Positions 34,063 through 38,193 are shown, numbered from the stretch's first letter. The stretch: 64,000 nt of DNA from Hyphomicrobiales bacterium (GCA_031406575.1 JANOHP010000015.1:25205-89204); one strand, 5' to 3'. Notes: generated from the sequence alone by a model not told the origin. A program made the numbers and translations.

Positions 34063-34355
34063 TGATACGCTTTCGGGCTTCGGGGTCGTCCAACTGGCGG
34101 CGATACTGGGCCGGCCTCGTGGCGCGCCTGTGACGCTGGTTGGACAAACAACGTTTACGCTGCGCCTGCGTTCCGCTTCCGAGCTGGCTACGCTTGCGAA
34201 TGGCCGCTTCGGCATCGCAGGAAATGCTGCCAATCCGCGGGGAAGCGTGCAAGAATTACCCGCCGTGGTTAACGTCCGTCAGGCGGCATTAACCAAAGCG
34301 CCACGGCGACATGCGTGCAATGCGAGGCCACTGCGGCTTCAAGTGGGAGAGGACG

Positions 34356-35570
34356 ATGCGTTCTAAAGAGTTGAATCTGTTGCGCGGCGCGCTGCTCGGT
34401 GCGGTGCTGGGGGCGTCGGCGCTCACCCCTGCTACAGCGCAGGACACGATTAAAGTCGGCGAGCTGAACAGCTACAAAGCGATCCCGGCGTTCCTGGAAC
34501 CCTACAAGAAGGGCTGGGAACTAGCCGTCGAAGAGATCAACAAGGCGGGCGGCATCAATGGCCGCAAGCTCGAGGTCGTCTCGCGCGACGACAATGCGAC
34601 GCCGGGCGAAGCGGTGCGGGTGGCAGAAGAGCTGGTATCGCGCGAGAACGTGGTGCTGCTGACCGGCGGATTCCTGTCGCACGTCGGCCTCGCCATTTCG
34701 GATTTCGCCAAGCAGCGCAAAATGCTGTTCGTGGCAGCCGAGCCCCTGACGGACAAGCTGGTCTGGGACAACGGGCATCGCTACACGTTCCGCCTGCGCG
34801 CCTCGACCTACATGCAGACCTCGATGCTGGTCGAGGATGCGGTGAAGCTCAACAAGAAGCGCTGGGCCATCGTTTATCCCAATTACGAGTATGGCCAGTC
34901 GGCAGTCGCGTCGTTCAAGAAGCTGATGAGCGAAAAGCAGCCGGGTGTCGAATTCGTCGGCGAGCAGGCGCCCGCGCTGGGCAAGATCGAAGCGGGGGCG
35001 GTGGCACAAGCGATCGCCGACATGAAGCCCGATGCGATCTTCAACGTCACCTTCGGTCCCGATCTGCAGAAGTTCGTGCGGGAAGGTACGACGCGCGGCG
35101 TGTTCAAGGATGTCGCCGTCTTCTCGCTGCTGGGCGGAGAACCCGAATATCTCGATCCGTTGAAAGAGGAAGCTCCCGTCGGCTGGTACGTGACGGGCTA
35201 TCCCTGGGATCAGATCACGACGCCCGAGCACAAGGCGTTCCTGGACGCCTATCGCGCCAAGTGGAACGACTACCCGCGACTGGGTTCCGTGGTGGGCTAT
35301 GCGGCGCTGCAGTCGATCGCGGCCATGCTGAAGAAAGCCGGGTCGACCGATACGGAGAAGATGGTCGATGCGATGAAGGGTCTCTCGCACGCGACTCCGT
35401 TCGGTCCGATCACCTATCGTGCCTTCGATCACCAATCGACGATGGGCGCCTATGTCGGCCGCGTCGGCGTCAAGGATGGCCGTGGCGTCATGACCGACTG
35501 GCGTTACGAAGCCGGCGACAAGCATCTGCCACCCGAGGATGCGGTGAAGAAACTACGCCCCGCCGAGTGA
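34356..35570 (+). CDS. ABC transporter substrate-binding protein (LivK/branched-chain amino acid type)
   Basis: Signal peptide MRSKELNLLRGALLGAVLGASALTPATAQD followed by a type I periplasmic-binding fold. Start at ATG 34356 with GGAGAGGA upstream. Confidence 0.85.
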   Translation: MRSKELNLLRGALLGAVLGASALTPATAQDTIKVGELNSYKAIPAFLEPYKKGWELAVEEINKAGGINGRKLEVVSRDDNATPGEAVRVAEELVSRENVVLLTGGFLSHVGLAISDFAKQRKMLFVAAEPLTDKLVWDNGHRYTFRLRASTYMQTSMLVEDAVKLNKKRWAIVYPNYEYGQSAVASFKKLMSEKQPGVEFVGEQAPALGKIEAGAVAQAIADMKPDAIFNVTFGPDLQKFVREGTTRGVFKDVAVFSLLGGEPEYLDPLKEEAPVGWYVTGYPWDQITTPEHKAFLDAYRAKWNDYPRLGSVVGYAALQSIAAMLKKAGSTDTEKMVDAMKGLSHATPFGPITYRAFDHQSTMGAYVGRVGVKDGRGVMTDWRYEAGDKHLPPEDAVKKLRPAE

Positions 35571-35592
35571 GTGAGATGGGTGGCTGGGTGGG

Positions 35593-35985
35593 ATCGTACG
35601 GATCTTCTTGAACAGGTGGTTCGCACGGTTCGCTCGTCGTGAGCGGCTTACGACGGCTCAGCTGTGCGAGGCCATCGACAGGGCGTCGCGCGGCTTGATC
35701 GATGCCGATCTCGGAGGCGGCGTCATCAAGCAGTGAGTGGCCCGAACCGGCCAGGGAAGGTCGGGAGGTTATCGGGTTGTCATCGTGTGCAGAATTGCGG
35801 ACCGCGCCGTCTTCTTTCGTGGGTTTGCCAAGAACGAGCGAGACACCTTAGGGGTCGACGAGTTTCGTGTTATCAAGGACGTCGCTAAAGACCTGTGGGC
35901 ATTGACGCAAGATGAACTGGATCGTCTGGTGGCAGCGAACGAATTCACGGAATTGAACTGCGATGGGCAAGCGGTACAAGAGTGA
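35593..35985 (+). pseudogene. RelE-superfamily toxin of HigB2/COG4737-like type, disrupted by an in-frame TGA and lacking a canonical start
   Basis: The frame reads (I)VRIFLNRWFARFARRERLTTAQLCEAIDRASRGLIDADLGGGVIKQ*VARTGQGRSGGYRVVIVCRIADRAVFFRGFAKNERDTL...; the stop is at 35734-35736. Only ATC, CTG or TTG are available as starts. The track lists just the C-terminal 82-aa piece (35737..35985). Confidence 0.65.
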
Positions 35986-35989
35986 CACG

Positions 35990-36250
35990 ATGGAGGCACT
36001 GCATGGGACCATGCAGAGCCTCAAATCCGTTGGCGCCATCGATGCCAAGCGCTTGGCCGAATTCGACGAGGCGTGCCTCGTACCGCTGTACCACGTGTAT
36101 AAAGATCGCAGAGGAGAGTGGCGGTGGCGCCTCGTCAGCGGCGGCGGTAAAATCATTGCCAGTAGCGGCGAAGGCTACGAGAGCCGGAAAGCTTGCGTCG
36201 CGGCGATTGCCATCTTGAAACTTGCGGCCGATGCTGAGATTGCCGCTTGA
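35990..36250 (+). CDS. chimeric small protein: antitoxin-like N-terminus fused to a DUF1508 (YegP-like) domain
   Basis: MEALHGTMQSLKSVGAIDAKRLAEFDEACLVP resembles the N-terminus of HigA2-type antitoxins. It continues as LYHVYKDRRGEWRWRLVSGGGKIIASSGEGYESRKACVAAIAILK, the DUF1508 pattern, and no HTH is present. ATG 35963 is an alternative start. Confidence 0.5.
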   Translation: MEALHGTMQSLKSVGAIDAKRLAEFDEACLVPLYHVYKDRRGEWRWRLVSGGGKIIASSGEGYESRKACVAAIAILKLAADAEIAA

Positions 36251-36309
36251 ACGGACATCACGACCCGCATGGTGATCGCCGATCAACCGCCCGGTGAGCA
36301 AAGGCTGAC

Positions 36310-38193
36310 ATGCTCGCCTCCTTCCTGATCCAGACGCTGAACGGCTTGGCCAGTGCGTCGCTGCTGTTTCTGGTGGCGCTCGGGTTGACGTTGATTTTCG
36401 GTGTTACACGCGTCGTCAATTTTGCGCACGGCTCGTTCACGATGCTGGGCGCGTTTATTGCAGCCACGCTCTATGCGCGGATGGGCGGCGGCGTGCTCGG
36501 GTTTTGGGGCGGCGCGCTGCTGGCTGCCCTCATCGTCGCCCTGATCGGCGTGGTGGTCGAACTCGTCATTCTGCGGCGCATCTACGCGGCGCCTGAGCTT
36601 TTGCAACTGACGGCGACGTTCGGCGTCGTGCTGGTCATCAAAGATGCGGCCCTGTGGCTGTGGGGGCCGGAGGATATTCTGGGTCCGCGCGCGCCGGGAT
36701 TGCGCGGCGCGGTATTCATCTTCGGAAAGCCCATTCCAGACTACGATCTGCTGCTGATTGTGCTGGGCCCGGTGTTCCTGGGGCTCATCACGCTGCTGTT
36801 GCGGCGCACCGATTGGGGCACTCGCGTCCGCGCCGCGACCGAAGACCGCGACATGGCGGCCGCGCTGGGTGTGAACCAAGCGCTGATGTTCACCAGTGTA
36901 TTTGCGCTCGGTTCGTTTCTCGCGGGGCTGGCGGGTGCGTTGGCGTTGCCGCGTGAGCCGGCAAATCTCGGCATCGACCTGTCGATCATCGCCGATGTGT
37001 TCGTTGTCACAGTGGTGGGTGGATTGGGCAGCATTTCGGGGGCCTATATCGCGGCCGTCTTGGTGTGCGTGGTCAAGGCCTGGTGCATCGGGATTGGCGA
37101 GGCGACGGTCTTCGGGTTCACGGTGTCGTTCACGCAGTTGACGATTGTCGTCGAATTCATCGTCATGGCGGTTGTGCTGGTGATCCGACCGTGGGGGCTG
37201 CTCGGCACGAAACCGGCACCGCAGCGCATAGCCGCCGTGCACCTGCTGCCGATGCCGCCGCCGGGACAGAGCGCGGTGCTGATGACCGGCGCGCTCGTCG
37301 TGATGATGGGATTGGCTCCGCTCGTTGCGGATCGGTTCGCGCTGGTGTTGGCGACGGACATTCTGACTTTCGCGCTGTTTGCGGGCAGCCTCGGTCTGCT
37401 GATGGGGCCGGGTGGCATCACGTCGTTCGGGCACGCGGCGTATCTGGGGGGCGGCGCCTATGCGGCGGCGATTGCGGCGAAGGCCGGCGCGCCTCTCGTC
37501 GTCGCCATCGCAGCGGGGATGTCGTTTGCCGCCGTGTTGGCGATGTTGTTTGGGTATTTCGCGGTGCGTTCCGCCGGTGTGTCGCTCGCCATGTTGACGT
37601 TGGCCTTCGCGCAGATCGTGTGGGCCATCGCGTTCCAATGGAACAGCGTAACCGGCGGTAGCAACGGGCTCGTCGGCGTTTGGCCACCAGCAGCGCTGGC
37701 GTCGAAGTCCACCTATTATCTGTTCACGTTGGCCGTGGTTGCGGCCGCGTTGCTTTTTGCGTGGCGCGTGGTGCACACGCCGTTCGGGTATCTGCTGCGG
37801 GCGGCACGTGACTCGCCCGTGCGCGCGGAATCGTTGGGCATCGATGTGCGGCGCACGCAGTGGTCGGCGTTCGTGCTGGCGGGTGCGCTGGCGGGCATTG
37901 CGGGGGCGCTCACCGTGTTCTCGAAGGGATCGCTGTCGCCGGACGTGGCGTCGATCCCGCGCTCGGTCGATGCGCTCGTCATGGTGCTGCTCGGCGGCCT
38001 CAACACGATTGCCGGTGCGGTGGTAGGCGCGGCCGTATTGACGCTGCTGGCCGACACGATCACGCGCTCGATCGTGTACTGGCAGGCCGTGCTGGGGCTG
38101 TCAATCATCGCGCTGTGCGTGCTGTTTCCCAATGGGATCGTCGGGACTCTGCGACGGCGGCTGGAGCACTTCACCTCCGGTGGCGCGCCGTGA
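36310..38193 (+). CDS. fused branched-chain amino acid ABC permease (LivH-LivM in one 627-aa polypeptide)
   Basis: The N-terminal half, MLASFLIQTLNGLASASLLFLVALGLTLIFGV, is LivH-like. The C-terminal half is LivM-like. Hydrophobic throughout. Confidence 0.85.
   Translation: MLASFLIQTLNGLASASLLFLVALGLTLIFGVTRVVNFAHGSFTMLGAFIAATLYARMGGGVLGFWGGALLAALIVALIGVVVELVILRRIYAAPELLQLTATFGVVLVIKDAALWLWGPEDILGPRAPGLRGAVFIFGKPIPDYDLLLIVLGPVFLGLITLLLRRTDWGTRVRAATEDRDMAAALGVNQALMFTSVFALGSFLAGLAGALALPREPANLGIDLSIIADVFVVTVVGGLGSISGAYIAAVLVCVVKAWCIGIGEATVFGFTVSFTQLTIVVEFIVMAVVLVIRPWGLLGTKPAPQRIAAVHLLPMPPPGQSAVLMTGALVVMMGLAPLVADRFALVLATDILTFALFAGSLGLLMGPGGITSFGHAAYLGGGAYAAAIAAKAGAPLVVAIAAGMSFAAVLAMLFGYFAVRSAGVSLAMLTLAFAQIVWAIAFQWNSVTGGSNGLVGVWPPAALASKSTYYLFTLAVVAAALLFAWRVVHTPFGYLLRAARDSPVRAESLGIDVRRTQWSAFVLAGALAGIAGALTVFSKGSLSPDVASIPRSVDALVMVLLGGLNTIAGAVVGAAVLTLLADTITRSIVYWQAVLGLSIIALCVLFPNGIVGTLRRRLEHFTSGGAP

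What the first reader, a model, noticed from the sequence alone, without database searches (positions are those of the whole stretch)
35571..36309. Decaying HigB2-like toxin plus an antitoxin N-terminus fused to a DUF1508/YegP domain, inserted inside an ABC transporter operon
A 740-bp insert lies between the binding-protein stop (35570) and the fused permease start (36310). Frame 35593-35985 encodes a full-length RelE-superfamily toxin of the HigB2/COG4737-like kind (RWFARFARRERL...LIDADLGGGVIKQ*VARTGQGRSGGYRVV...FFRGFAKNERDTL). It carries an in-frame TGA at 35734-35736 where relatives have Arg (KQRVAR). ATC stands where I would expect the ATG. The partner ORF begins like the cognate antitoxin (...LKSVGAIDAKRLAEFDEACLVP, resembling the N-terminal toxin-neutralising segment described for Vibrio HigA2). 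Instead of the HTH DNA-binding domain, it continues as LYHVYKDRRGEWRWRLVSGGGKIIASSGEGYESRKACVAAIAILK, a DUF1508 pattern. So the toxin looks dead. The antitoxin has either been domain-swapped into a new chimera or overwritten by a DUF1508 gene. A neutralising-peptide::YegP fusion is not something I recognise as described.
Basis: partly seen in the sequence, partly recalled or inferred. Interest (0 to 1): 0.6.

Follow-up and report, generated by a model that had tools for sequence, protein, structure and literature searches.

The report
Decayed toxin-antitoxin cassette with DUF1508 antitoxin
A small toxin-antitoxin cassette sits between two genes of a nutrient-uptake operon; its toxin gene is dead here, but its antidote gene belongs to a rare, so far unnamed family in which the usual DNA-binding half is replaced by a DUF1508/YegP domain of unknown function.

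Summary
Window 35571-36309 is a 739-bp insert between the binding-protein gene and the fused permease gene of a Liv-type ABC operon. At least 14 congeners have the two genes adjacent.

The insert carries two genes:
- A PF06296 (HigB2-type) toxin gene with two lesions. The family's start codon reads GTA (35596-98). A TGA (35734-36) replaces the Arg that aligns with catalytic Arg51 of Vibrio HigB2.
- An intact 95-aa ORF (35963-36250). Its first ~41 residues are the HigA2-type toxin-neutralising segment. The rest is one DUF1508 domain, with no HTH.

The fusion is not a decay artefact. A congener (G004) has the cassette at the same site with an intact toxin and an intact 103-aa fusion. Two other congeners have degraded remnants. 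A profile search of 1.84 billion proteins found the same architecture in at least seven clusters that are under 50% identical. Public sources name them only "DUF1508/YegP".

Best reading: this is a HigBA2-type module in which a homodimerising DUF1508 domain replaces the HTH. Here it has decayed to an orphan antitoxin. I rate it a new variant of a known kind, of moderate interest. Neutralisation, dimerisation and expression are untested.

The parts
34311..35570 (+). Periplasmic substrate-binding protein gene of a Liv-type ABC transporter. It forms the left flank of the insert.
   Evidence: PF13458 Peripla_BP_6, E 1e-68. Orthologues at 75-89% identity occur in 20 of 23 congeners.
35571..36298 (+). 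Inserted toxin-antitoxin cassette. It replaces the native spacer between the binding-protein and permease genes.
   Evidence: Alignment with the empty site of congener G013: homology stops at the binding-protein stop codon and resumes about 12 nt before the permease ATG. At least 14 congeners have the permease 100-260 bp after the binding-protein gene.
35596..35985 (+). Pseudogene of a PF06296 (HigB2-type, RelE superfamily) toxin.
   Evidence: PF06296 positions 1-119, 138 bits, one internal TGA. One search gives E 4e-38. It is 52% identical to the intact G004 toxin over 124 aa.
35596..35598 (+). GTA at the position of the family's start codon, so the canonical start is lost.
   Evidence: Codon alignment of six distinct relatives: GTG in three (G004 cassette, G012:C112, G004:C763), ATG in G004:C603, TTG in G012:C399. 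G016's stub also begins with GTG.
35608..35610 (+). TTG that could act as a substitute start, four codons downstream of the canonical one.
   Evidence: the ORF listing. It aligns with an internal Met, Leu or Lys in relatives.
35734..35736 (+). In-frame TGA at the conserved Arg codon of the KQR(I/V)AR motif. This Arg is equivalent to catalytic Arg51 of Vibrio cholerae HigB2.
   Evidence: Ten relatives have CGN or AGA here. The HMMER alignment to PDB 5JA8/5JA9 places it at Arg51. R51A lowers VcHigB2 activity 170-fold (PMC5416850).
35963..36250 (+). Intact 95-aa ORF encoding a chimeric antitoxin. Its start overlaps the toxin's 3' end by 23 nt.
   Evidence: The G004 pair shows the same 23-nt overlap. 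AlphaFold2 gives mean pLDDT 88.
35963..36085 (+). Residues 1-41: the HigA2-type N-terminal toxin-neutralising segment.
   Evidence: It matches the N-termini of HTH antitoxins next to PF06296 toxins. Predicted helices span residues 8-22 and 28-38.
36086..36247 (+). Residues 42-95: a single DUF1508 / UPF0339 domain that follows the N-terminal segment with no linker.
   Evidence: PF07411, E 1.6e-11. PDB 6Q2Z, 3BID and 2K7I match by sequence and by fold, with target-normalised TM 0.70-0.75.
36310..38193 (+). Fused LivH/LivM-type permease gene, forming the right flank. The ATPase genes follow it.
   Evidence: PF02653, two stretches, E 4e-65. Orthologues sit directly after the binding-protein gene in congeners.

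Best explanation
The insert is a type II toxin-antitoxin cassette of the HigBA2 kind. The toxin gene comes first and is a PF06296 ribosome-dependent mRNA endonuclease. The antitoxin gene overlaps its 3' end.

The antitoxin keeps the roughly 41-residue N-terminal segment that wraps and neutralises the toxin in Vibrio HigA2. In place of the C-terminal helix-turn-helix dimerisation and DNA-binding domain it carries one DUF1508 (UPF0339/YegP) domain.

Most likely mechanism in intact relatives (inferred):
- The DUF1508 domain homodimerises, as single-domain DUF1508 proteins do.
- This gives a toxin-antitoxin2-toxin complex like VcHigBA2.
- With no HTH and no room for a promoter of its own, the pair is transcribed with the upstream binding-protein gene.

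In this genome the cassette has decayed. The toxin has lost its canonical start codon (GTA) and carries a stop at the catalytic-Arg codon. The antitoxin ORF is still intact, though it has lost the inter-domain linker. It is therefore an orphan antitoxin, and the genome holds no other PF06296 toxin for it to act on.

Shown: the homologies, the lesions, the insertion site, and conservation of the architecture. Inferred: neutralisation, dimerisation, co-transcription, and whether the orphan is still useful.
For: Domain assignments.

Lesions. The TGA is placed at the VcHigB2 Arg51 position together with PMC5416850.

Intact pair in congener G004, directly after the orthologous binding-protein gene:
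- A 128-aa toxin, PF06296 E 1.3e-42.
- A 103-aa fusion with the same 23-nt overlap.

Remnants at the same site:
- G012 has a 5'-truncated toxin and a fusion with a 10-nt frameshifting deletion.
- G016 has a 13-codon toxin stub.
- At least 14 congeners have empty sites.

The architecture elsewhere:
- Full-length matches (profile positions 1-87 up to 1-95) occur in P0022, P0056, P0058, P0065, P0080, P0113 and P0114.
- These are mutually under 50% identical. All have PF07411 and none has an HTH match. Linkers are 8-17 aa.
- N-terminal residues S7, A12, H14, L20, G24, D35 and C38 are invariant across the fusions. In the HTH antitoxins listed, A12, H14, G24, D35 and C38 are kept in all, and S7 and L20 in most.

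The standard form of the family is a PF06296 toxin plus a 105-aa antitoxin made of the N-terminal segment and HTH_3.

Literature:
- The HigA2 N-terminal intrinsically disordered segment is sufficient for neutralisation, and the HTH is the dimerisation and DNA-binding domain (PMC5416850).
- Single DUF1508 domains form homodimers, as in 6Q2Z (bioRxiv 10.1101/2024.11.21.623966).

No promoter-like or terminator-like site lies inside the cassette. Only 25-37 nt separate the binding-protein stop from the toxin start.
Against: - Only one locus (G004) shows the fusion next to an intact toxin.
- In three of the four congeners that carry the cassette it is degraded, so it is not strongly maintained.
- The window's clade has lost the linker that all other family members keep. 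That could impair toxin binding.
- No experiment shows that DUF1508 dimerises in this context or that the fusion neutralises the toxin.
- AlphaFold predicts a second helix (residues 28-38) where VcHigA2 forms a beta-strand on binding (against PMC5416850).
- The assembly is a 265-contig draft, so the two point lesions are not verified by reads.
Confidence: 0.72

Rival explanations
1. The chimera is an accident of decay. A DUF1508 gene, or a fragment of one, overwrote the 3' part of an ordinary HTH antitoxin gene. The resulting ORF has no function in any lineage.
For: The toxin is dead in the window. The fusion is frameshifted in G012. The architecture is rare: none was found in 72,556 plasmids, in 400 genomes sampled from the order, or in viral contigs.
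Against: - The architecture is kept as an open frame in at least seven clusters that are under 50% identical. They have variable linkers but conserved N-terminal and DUF1508 core residues.
- It is paired with an intact toxin in G004.
- The 95-aa form is uninterrupted in four lineages at 75-100% identity.
Confidence: 0.1
2. The window's toxin is still functional. It starts at TTG 35608 and the TGA is read through, or GTA and TGA are assembly errors. The locus would then be a live toxin-antitoxin pair.
For: A TTG lies four codons after the lost start. The pseudogene still scores 130-138 bits against PF06296, so any inactivation is recent. The genome is a draft of 265 contigs.
Against: - There are two independent lesions.
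- The stop replaces a catalytic Arg, so even read-through would give a crippled enzyme.
- The 15-billion-protein collection holds no intact toxin more than 63% identical. Yet near-identical 95-aa fusions occur on more than 50 contigs.
Confidence: 0.06
3. The 95-aa protein is primarily a DUF1508 stress or nucleic-acid-binding protein. The captured antitoxin N-terminus serves another purpose, for example as a degron or regulatory handle, independent of any toxin.
For: - It is the only DUF1508 gene in the genome, and its ORF outlived the toxin.
- The 95-aa form is conserved at 75-95% identity in relatives where no intact toxin was found.
- DUF1508 is found fused to a tyrosyl-tRNA synthetase and to lysine-rich tails elsewhere.
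Against: - The N-terminal residues conserved in the fusions are largely the ones conserved in toxin-bound HTH antitoxins.
- The gene overlaps the toxin gene as in canonical pairs.
- The G004 copy keeps its toxin.
Confidence: 0.1

Closest known systems
Vibrio cholerae HigB2-HigA2 (PDB 5JAA, 5JA8, 5J9I; PMC5416850)
   Same: - Toxin-first gene order.
- A RelE-superfamily toxin with the Arg51, Arg64 and Lys84 equivalents (KQR, GGYR, GFAKN).
- An antitoxin whose N-terminal segment of about 40 residues is the neutralising part, followed by a separate C-terminal domain.
   Different: - Sequence similarity is distant: toxin E 2e-3, HTH antitoxin of the same family E 1e-5.
- The C-terminal HTH dimerisation and DNA-binding domain is absent and replaced by DUF1508.
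- In the window the toxin is a pseudogene.
Standard PF06296 toxin plus roughly 105-aa antitoxin (N-terminal segment and HTH_3) pairs, e.g. G012:C112 (L002) and metagenome loci L105, L110, L133
   Same: - The same toxin family.
- The same antitoxin N-terminus, 41-57% identical over residues 1-42.
- The same overlapping gene arrangement.
   Different: After the conserved C-L-x-P motif these antitoxins continue into an HTH_3 domain. The window's protein continues into DUF1508.
Single-domain UPF0339/DUF1508 proteins: HVO_2922 (6Q2Z), NMB1088 (3BID), Atu0232 (2K7I); E. coli YegP (2K8E) as the tandem form
   Same: The C-terminal 54 residues match by sequence (E 2e-12 to 3e-8) and by fold (target-normalised TM 0.70-0.75).
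   Different: Those proteins are stand-alone and have no known partner. About 25 sampled homologues had no antitoxin-like N-terminus and no closely linked partner gene of toxin size (neighbours were not run against Pfam).

Membership tests
PF06296 (PF_RelE / HigB2-type) toxin | Profile match above Pfam's gathering score over most of the domain | tested here: met
   130.6 bits (cut-off 27), profile positions 6-119, read through with X. 138 bits over positions 1-119 from base 35596.
PF06296 (PF_RelE / HigB2-type) toxin | Uninterrupted ORF with a start codon at the family's N-terminus | tested here: not met
   GTA at the start position. TGA at codon 47 counted from that position. It is a pseudogene.
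PF06296 (PF_RelE / HigB2-type) toxin | Equivalents of the VcHigB2 active-site residues Arg51, Arg64, Tyr82 and Lys84 | tested here: inconclusive
   Using the alignment and PMC5416850: Arg64 (GGYR) and Lys84 (GFAKN) are present. Tyr82 is Phe, as in the whole PF06296 group examined. Arg51 is the stop codon in the window and Arg in G004.
HigA2-type antitoxin | N-terminal toxin-neutralising segment homologous to that of antitoxins paired with PF06296 toxins | tested here: met
   Residues 1-45 match the G012:C112 antitoxin at E 1.8e-6. Seven were inspected: all are HTH-type antitoxins, and six have a full-length PF06296-like toxin ORF directly upstream.
HigA2-type antitoxin | C-terminal helix-turn-helix (HTH_3/XRE) dimerisation and DNA-binding domain | tested here: not met
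   No HTH match in the window protein or in any of the 10 aligned fusion proteins. PF07411 is the only hit. Standard relatives hit PF01381.
HigA2-type antitoxin | Gene immediately downstream of the toxin gene and overlapping it | tested here: met
   The ATG at 35963 lies 23 nt before the end of the toxin's stop codon at 35985. G004 has the same overlap.
DUF1508 / UPF0339 (PF07411) | Profile match above the gathering score and the beta-beta-beta-alpha fold | tested here: met
   44.3 bits (cut-off 22). AlphaFold2 gives strands 42-47, 53-58 and 64-67 and helix 75-89, mean pLDDT 88. Foldseek finds 3BID, 6Q2Z and 2K7I at probability 1.00.
DUF1508 / UPF0339 (PF07411) | Homodimerisation of the single domain | not testable with these tools
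   Known for 6Q2Z according to bioRxiv 10.1101/2024.11.21.623966. Only single chains can be folded here.
Functional type II toxin-antitoxin system | The toxin arrests growth and the partner neutralises it by direct binding | not testable with these tools
   This needs expression and binding assays. The G004 pair is the one to test.

The most novel reading that the evidence does not exclude
DUF1508 (UPF0339/YegP) is a recurrent alternative scaffold of type II antitoxins. It would act as a dimerisation module, and possibly a nucleic-acid-binding one, that can stand in for HTH, RHH or AbrB domains. This HigB2-type family would be one instance.

Unchecked first-reader notes from this scan report similar DUF1508 chimeras next to PIN/VapC and BrnT toxins in other genomes.

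If true, this would give a widespread domain of unknown function its first concrete molecular role.
Probability: 0.3. Interest if true: 0.65.

Novelty: new variant of a known kind. Interest (0 to 1): 0.5.

Why it matters
Type II antitoxins are known to be modular: a neutralising peptide joined to a DNA-binding and dimerisation domain. The recognised second modules are HTH, RHH, AbrB and Phd/YefM.

Here a small, conserved family uses a DUF1508 domain instead. DUF1508 is found across bacteria, archaea and phages, and E. coli YegP is a stress-induced member. No function is known for it.

A defined binding partner and a testable role, as a dimeric scaffold for a HigB2-type toxin, would give a way into DUF1508 biology. 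It would also raise the question of how an antitoxin without an HTH is regulated; here, embedding in a host operon is a plausible answer.

In the papers I could search, no text links DUF1508 or YegP to an antitoxin role. Public sources label the family members only "DUF1508" or "YegP".

The window's own copy is an ordinary decaying cassette. It also records the stages of decay within one genus: intact, then toxin lesions, then truncation and frameshift, then a 13-codon stub, then an empty site.

Tried and rejected
- **The look-up of encoding contigs:** The neighbourhoods of P0002-P0004, P0056, P0058, P0065, P0080, P0113 and P0114 could not be read.
- **Metagenome-contig scan with the fusion alignment:** returned only ordinary HTH antitoxins, matching the N-terminus only. 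No fusion locus was found.
- **Genome-contig scan:** found only the G004 record as a full-length fusion. Its peptide patterns were narrow.
- **Other collections:** the search of 400 sampled genomes from the order, the plasmid tblastn and the viral-contig scan found no further full-length fusion.
- **ESM Atlas:** no usable hit.
- **Neighbours of about 25 stand-alone DUF1508 genes:** no closely linked partner gene of toxin size was seen (the neighbours were not run against Pfam), so these loci give no sign that DUF1508 is generally TA-linked.
- **dN/dS:** not attempted. The only DNA-level relatives (G004, G012) are 45-62% identical at protein level, so synonymous sites are probably saturated. 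The closer relatives are available as protein only.
- **Binding-protein gene fragment after the window's fusion stop, as seen in G004:** the similarity is too weak to claim.
rejected.

Full report
**1. What is in the sequence**

The binding-protein gene (34311-35570, PF13458) and the fused LivH/LivM-type permease gene (36310-38193, PF02653) are separated by 739 bp. Two genes lie in this gap.

The first runs from 35596 to 35985.
- It matches PF06296 (Pfam "RelE", the HigB2 group) over profile positions 1-119 at 138 bits, with one internal TGA.
- Read through with X it scores 130.6 bits, E 4e-38.

The second is an uninterrupted 95-codon ORF at 35963-36250. Its ATG lies 23 nt before the end of the toxin frame.
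- Pfam finds DUF1508 (PF07411) at residues 48-93 (E 1.6e-11) and nothing else.
- NCBIfam finds only the HVO_2922 (DUF1508) model, below its cut-off.

**2. The toxin is a pseudogene with two lesions**

*Start codon.* I aligned the 5' ends of six distinct relatives codon by codon. The family starts at a conserved (M/V/L)-R/Q-(I/V)-F motif.
- The start codon is GTG in the G004 cassette, in G012:C112 and in G004:C763. It is ATG in G004:C603 and TTG in G012:C399.
- In G004:C763 an in-frame stop lies seven codons upstream of it.
- The window has GTA at this position (35596-98).
That detail is therefore wrong, although the idea that the start is damaged is right.
- A TTG at 35608 could act as a substitute start.

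*Premature stop.* The TGA at 35734-36 replaces an Arg that all ten relatives examined encode as CGN or AGA, in the motif KQR(I/V)AR.
- The HMMER alignment of the intact G004 toxin to Vibrio cholerae HigB-2 (PDB 5JA8/5JA9, E 2e-3) puts this Arg at VcHigB2 Arg51. It puts the GGYR Arg at Arg64 and the GFAKN Lys at Lys84.
- Hadzi et al. 2017 (PMC5416850) show that Arg51, Arg64, Tyr82 and Lys84 are active-site residues. R51A lowers activity 170-fold.
- So even read-through of the stop would give a crippled enzyme.

The pseudogene still scores well against the profile, so inactivation is probably recent. The genome (97.6% complete) has no other PF06296 locus and no other DUF1508 locus.

**3. The second ORF is an antitoxin N-terminus joined to DUF1508**

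The same genus holds ordinary pairs of this family. In G012:C112 (L002) an intact toxin is followed by a 105-aa protein.
- Its first 41 residues align with the window ORF. Invariant positions include K6, S7, H14, M17, G24, D35, C38, L39 and P41.
- It then continues into an HTH_3 domain.

The 80 best kept match the N-terminal part, mostly residues 1-42 to 1-56.
- The seven loci I inspected are all HTH-type antitoxins of about 105 aa.
- Six of them have a full-length PF06296-like toxin ORF directly upstream.

The L002 antitoxin matches Vibrio HigA-2 (5JAA, 5J9I) at E 1e-5. In VcHigA2:
- Residues 1-36 are an intrinsically disordered segment that folds into a helix and a strand on the toxin and is sufficient for neutralisation.
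- The C-terminal HTH is the dimerisation and DNA-binding domain (PMC5416850).

The window protein keeps the whole neutralising segment up to the conserved C-L-x-P motif. It then runs straight into a DUF1508 domain.
- That domain matches the solved UPF0339 proteins 6Q2Z, 3BID and 2K7I by sequence (E 2e-12 to 3e-8).
- In an AlphaFold2 model (mean pLDDT 88; helices 8-22 and 28-38, strands 42-47, 53-58 and 64-67, helix 75-89) it matches them by fold. Target-normalised TM is 0.70-0.75 at probability 1.00.

**4. The chimera is conserved and is not a local accident**

- *Close relatives.* The 5.8-billion-cluster search found three, all exactly 95 aa, at 95, 80 and 75% identity. The 95% cluster has nine members on more than 50 contigs.
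- *An intact pair.* In congener G004 (record JANOJW010000630.1, a Hyphomicrobiales MAG) the orthologous binding-protein gene is followed by an intact toxin. It is 128 aa from its GTG start, PF06296 E 1.3e-42, with CGC at the Arg position. An intact 103-aa fusion, 48% identical to the window's, follows with the same 23-nt overlap.
- *Diverged family members.* A profile search of 1.84 billion representative proteins found single-stretch matches covering most or all of the profile (positions 1-87 up to 1-95) in P0022, P0056, P0058, P0065, P0080, P0113 and P0114. These are 103-111 aa and mutually under 50% identical. They share the N-terminal motif and the DUF1508 core, and they differ in a linker of 8-17 aa. 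All ten aligned members hit PF07411 only.
- *Annotation.* Sources call them "DUF1508 domain-containing protein" or "uncharacterized protein YegP".
- *The window's clade* is the only one without a linker. G012's degraded copy has a 7-residue linker.
- *Specificity.* About 25 DUF1508 genes sampled from other genomes are mostly stand-alone proteins of about 56 aa, with no such N-terminus and no closely linked partner gene of toxin size; their neighbours were not run against Pfam.
- *Rarity.* No full-length fusion was found in 72,556 plasmids, in 400 genomes sampled from the order or in viral contigs.

**5. It is an insertion in the operon, caught at several stages of decay**

Of 21 congeners with the orthologous binding-protein gene (75-89% identity), at least 14 have the permease gene 100-260 bp downstream.
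- The closest by binding-protein identity (G013, 89%) is empty. Its alignment with the window shows that the cassette replaces the whole native spacer, from the stop codon to about 12 nt before the permease ATG.

Four genomes carry the cassette or remnants of it at this site:

| Genome | Toxin | Fusion |
|---|---|---|
| G004 | intact | intact, 103 aa |
| G000 (the window) | two point lesions | intact, 95 aa |
| G012 | 5' half deleted | 10-nt frameshifting deletion |
| G016 | 13-codon stub (VRIFLKRWFARFA) | absent |

In G004, an 89-nt direct repeat (85% identical) of binding-protein codons about 365-396 brackets the cassette. This hints that recombination in the 3' end of the binding-protein gene moved or removed it.

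The distribution is patchy relative to binding-protein similarity. That fits an old insertion with repeated loss, but transfer by flanking homology is not excluded.

**6. How it probably works**

In intact relatives I read this as a HigBA2-type module.
- The N-terminal segment of the partner binds and inactivates the toxin. This is inferred from homology to VcHigA2 and from conservation of most of the same residues in the fusions and in the HTH antitoxins.
- The DUF1508 domain takes over the structural job of the HTH domain by homodimerising. Single-domain DUF1508 proteins form homodimers and tandem ones form pseudo-dimers (bioRxiv 10.1101/2024.11.21.623966).
- The dimer is said to resemble the PC4/Whirly single-stranded nucleic-acid-binding fold (PMC12065111). 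Some nucleic-acid binding is therefore possible but unproven.
- Only 25-37 nt separate the binding-protein stop from the toxin start, and no promoter-like or terminator-like site lies in the cassette (this is a weak test in a high-GC alphaproteobacterium). Transcription from the transporter operon is the simplest expectation.

In the window itself the toxin is dead and the partner is an orphan.
- No intact toxin more than 63% identical to the window's exists in the 15-billion-protein collection, although the 95-aa fusion is common there.
- This suggests that the whole 95-aa lineage has lost the toxin while keeping the fusion ORF open at 75-100% identity.
- That pattern hints at some retained value, for example protection against incoming HigB2-type elements or a DUF1508 function. 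Without DNA of those relatives I could not test selection.

**7. Comparison with what is known, and novelty**

The toxin is a (broken) member of PF06296. The partner fails one defining feature of HigA2-type antitoxins, the HTH, and so cannot be filed as one. It is a DUF1508 protein by profile and by fold.

Searches of the paper library for DUF1508 or YegP together with "antitoxin" found no description of such an antitoxin.
- The only DUF1508 and antitoxin co-occurrence is a Menshen paper that treats DUF1508 as a putative sensor domain.
- A 2025 survey of RelE/ParE toxins lists PF06296 as HigB2-type with toxin-first gene order. Its main text does not mention DUF1508.

I therefore rate the family a new variant of a known kind.

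This scan's index holds unchecked first-reader notes of DUF1508 chimeras next to PIN/VapC and BrnT toxins in other genomes. I could not test them. They raise the possibility that DUF1508 is a recurrent antitoxin module.

**8. Limits**

- No experiment supports neutralisation, dimerisation or expression.
- Only one intact pair was seen in context.
- The window comes from a 265-contig draft, so the two point lesions rest on the assembly.

Noticed in passing
L010:1400-1488 and L010:2279-2367 (G004:C630): An 89-nt direct repeat, 85% identical, copies binding-protein codons about 365-396. It brackets the binding-protein 3' end, the toxin and the fusion. This suggests the cassette was inserted or can be excised by recombination within the binding-protein gene.
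   Followed up: partly
L187:2723-2761 (G016:C60): A 13-codon stub of the toxin gene (VRIFLKRWFARFA, GTG start) sits directly after the orthologous binding-protein stop. About 400 bp of unrelated sequence and then the permease gene follow. It is a scar of the same cassette.
   Followed up: partly
P0152 (243 aa): One ORF holds two complete HigA2-like antitoxins in tandem, each with the N-terminal segment and an HTH.
   Followed up: no
L055:2789-4144 (Pirellulales MAG): A tyrosyl-tRNA synthetase-like protein of 451 aa (HLGH and KMSKS motifs seen by eye; not run against Pfam) ends in a DUF1508 domain at residues about 405-440. The NCBIfam tryptophan-tRNA ligase model PRK12284 also weakly matches the window's DUF1508 part (E 0.011). 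This hints at an RNA-related role for DUF1508.
   Followed up: no
L025:3893-4321 and L029:3935-4282 (Alphaproteobacteria MAGs): Single DUF1508 domains are followed by long lysine-rich, histone-H1-like tails (repeats of the AKRKT kind). This suggests nucleic-acid association.
   Followed up: no
L024:3863-4303 and L030:260-754 (Acidobacteria MAGs): DUF1508 is preceded by an N-terminal region of roughly 85-105 residues that looks helical (coiled-coil-like) by eye and is unrelated to the antitoxin segment. This is another recurrent DUF1508 architecture.
   Followed up: no
window 35993-36022: A 14-nt inverted repeat, 93% complementary with 2 nt between the arms, lies inside the coding region for the antitoxin's N-terminal helix. 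Its significance is unknown and it may be chance.
   Followed up: no
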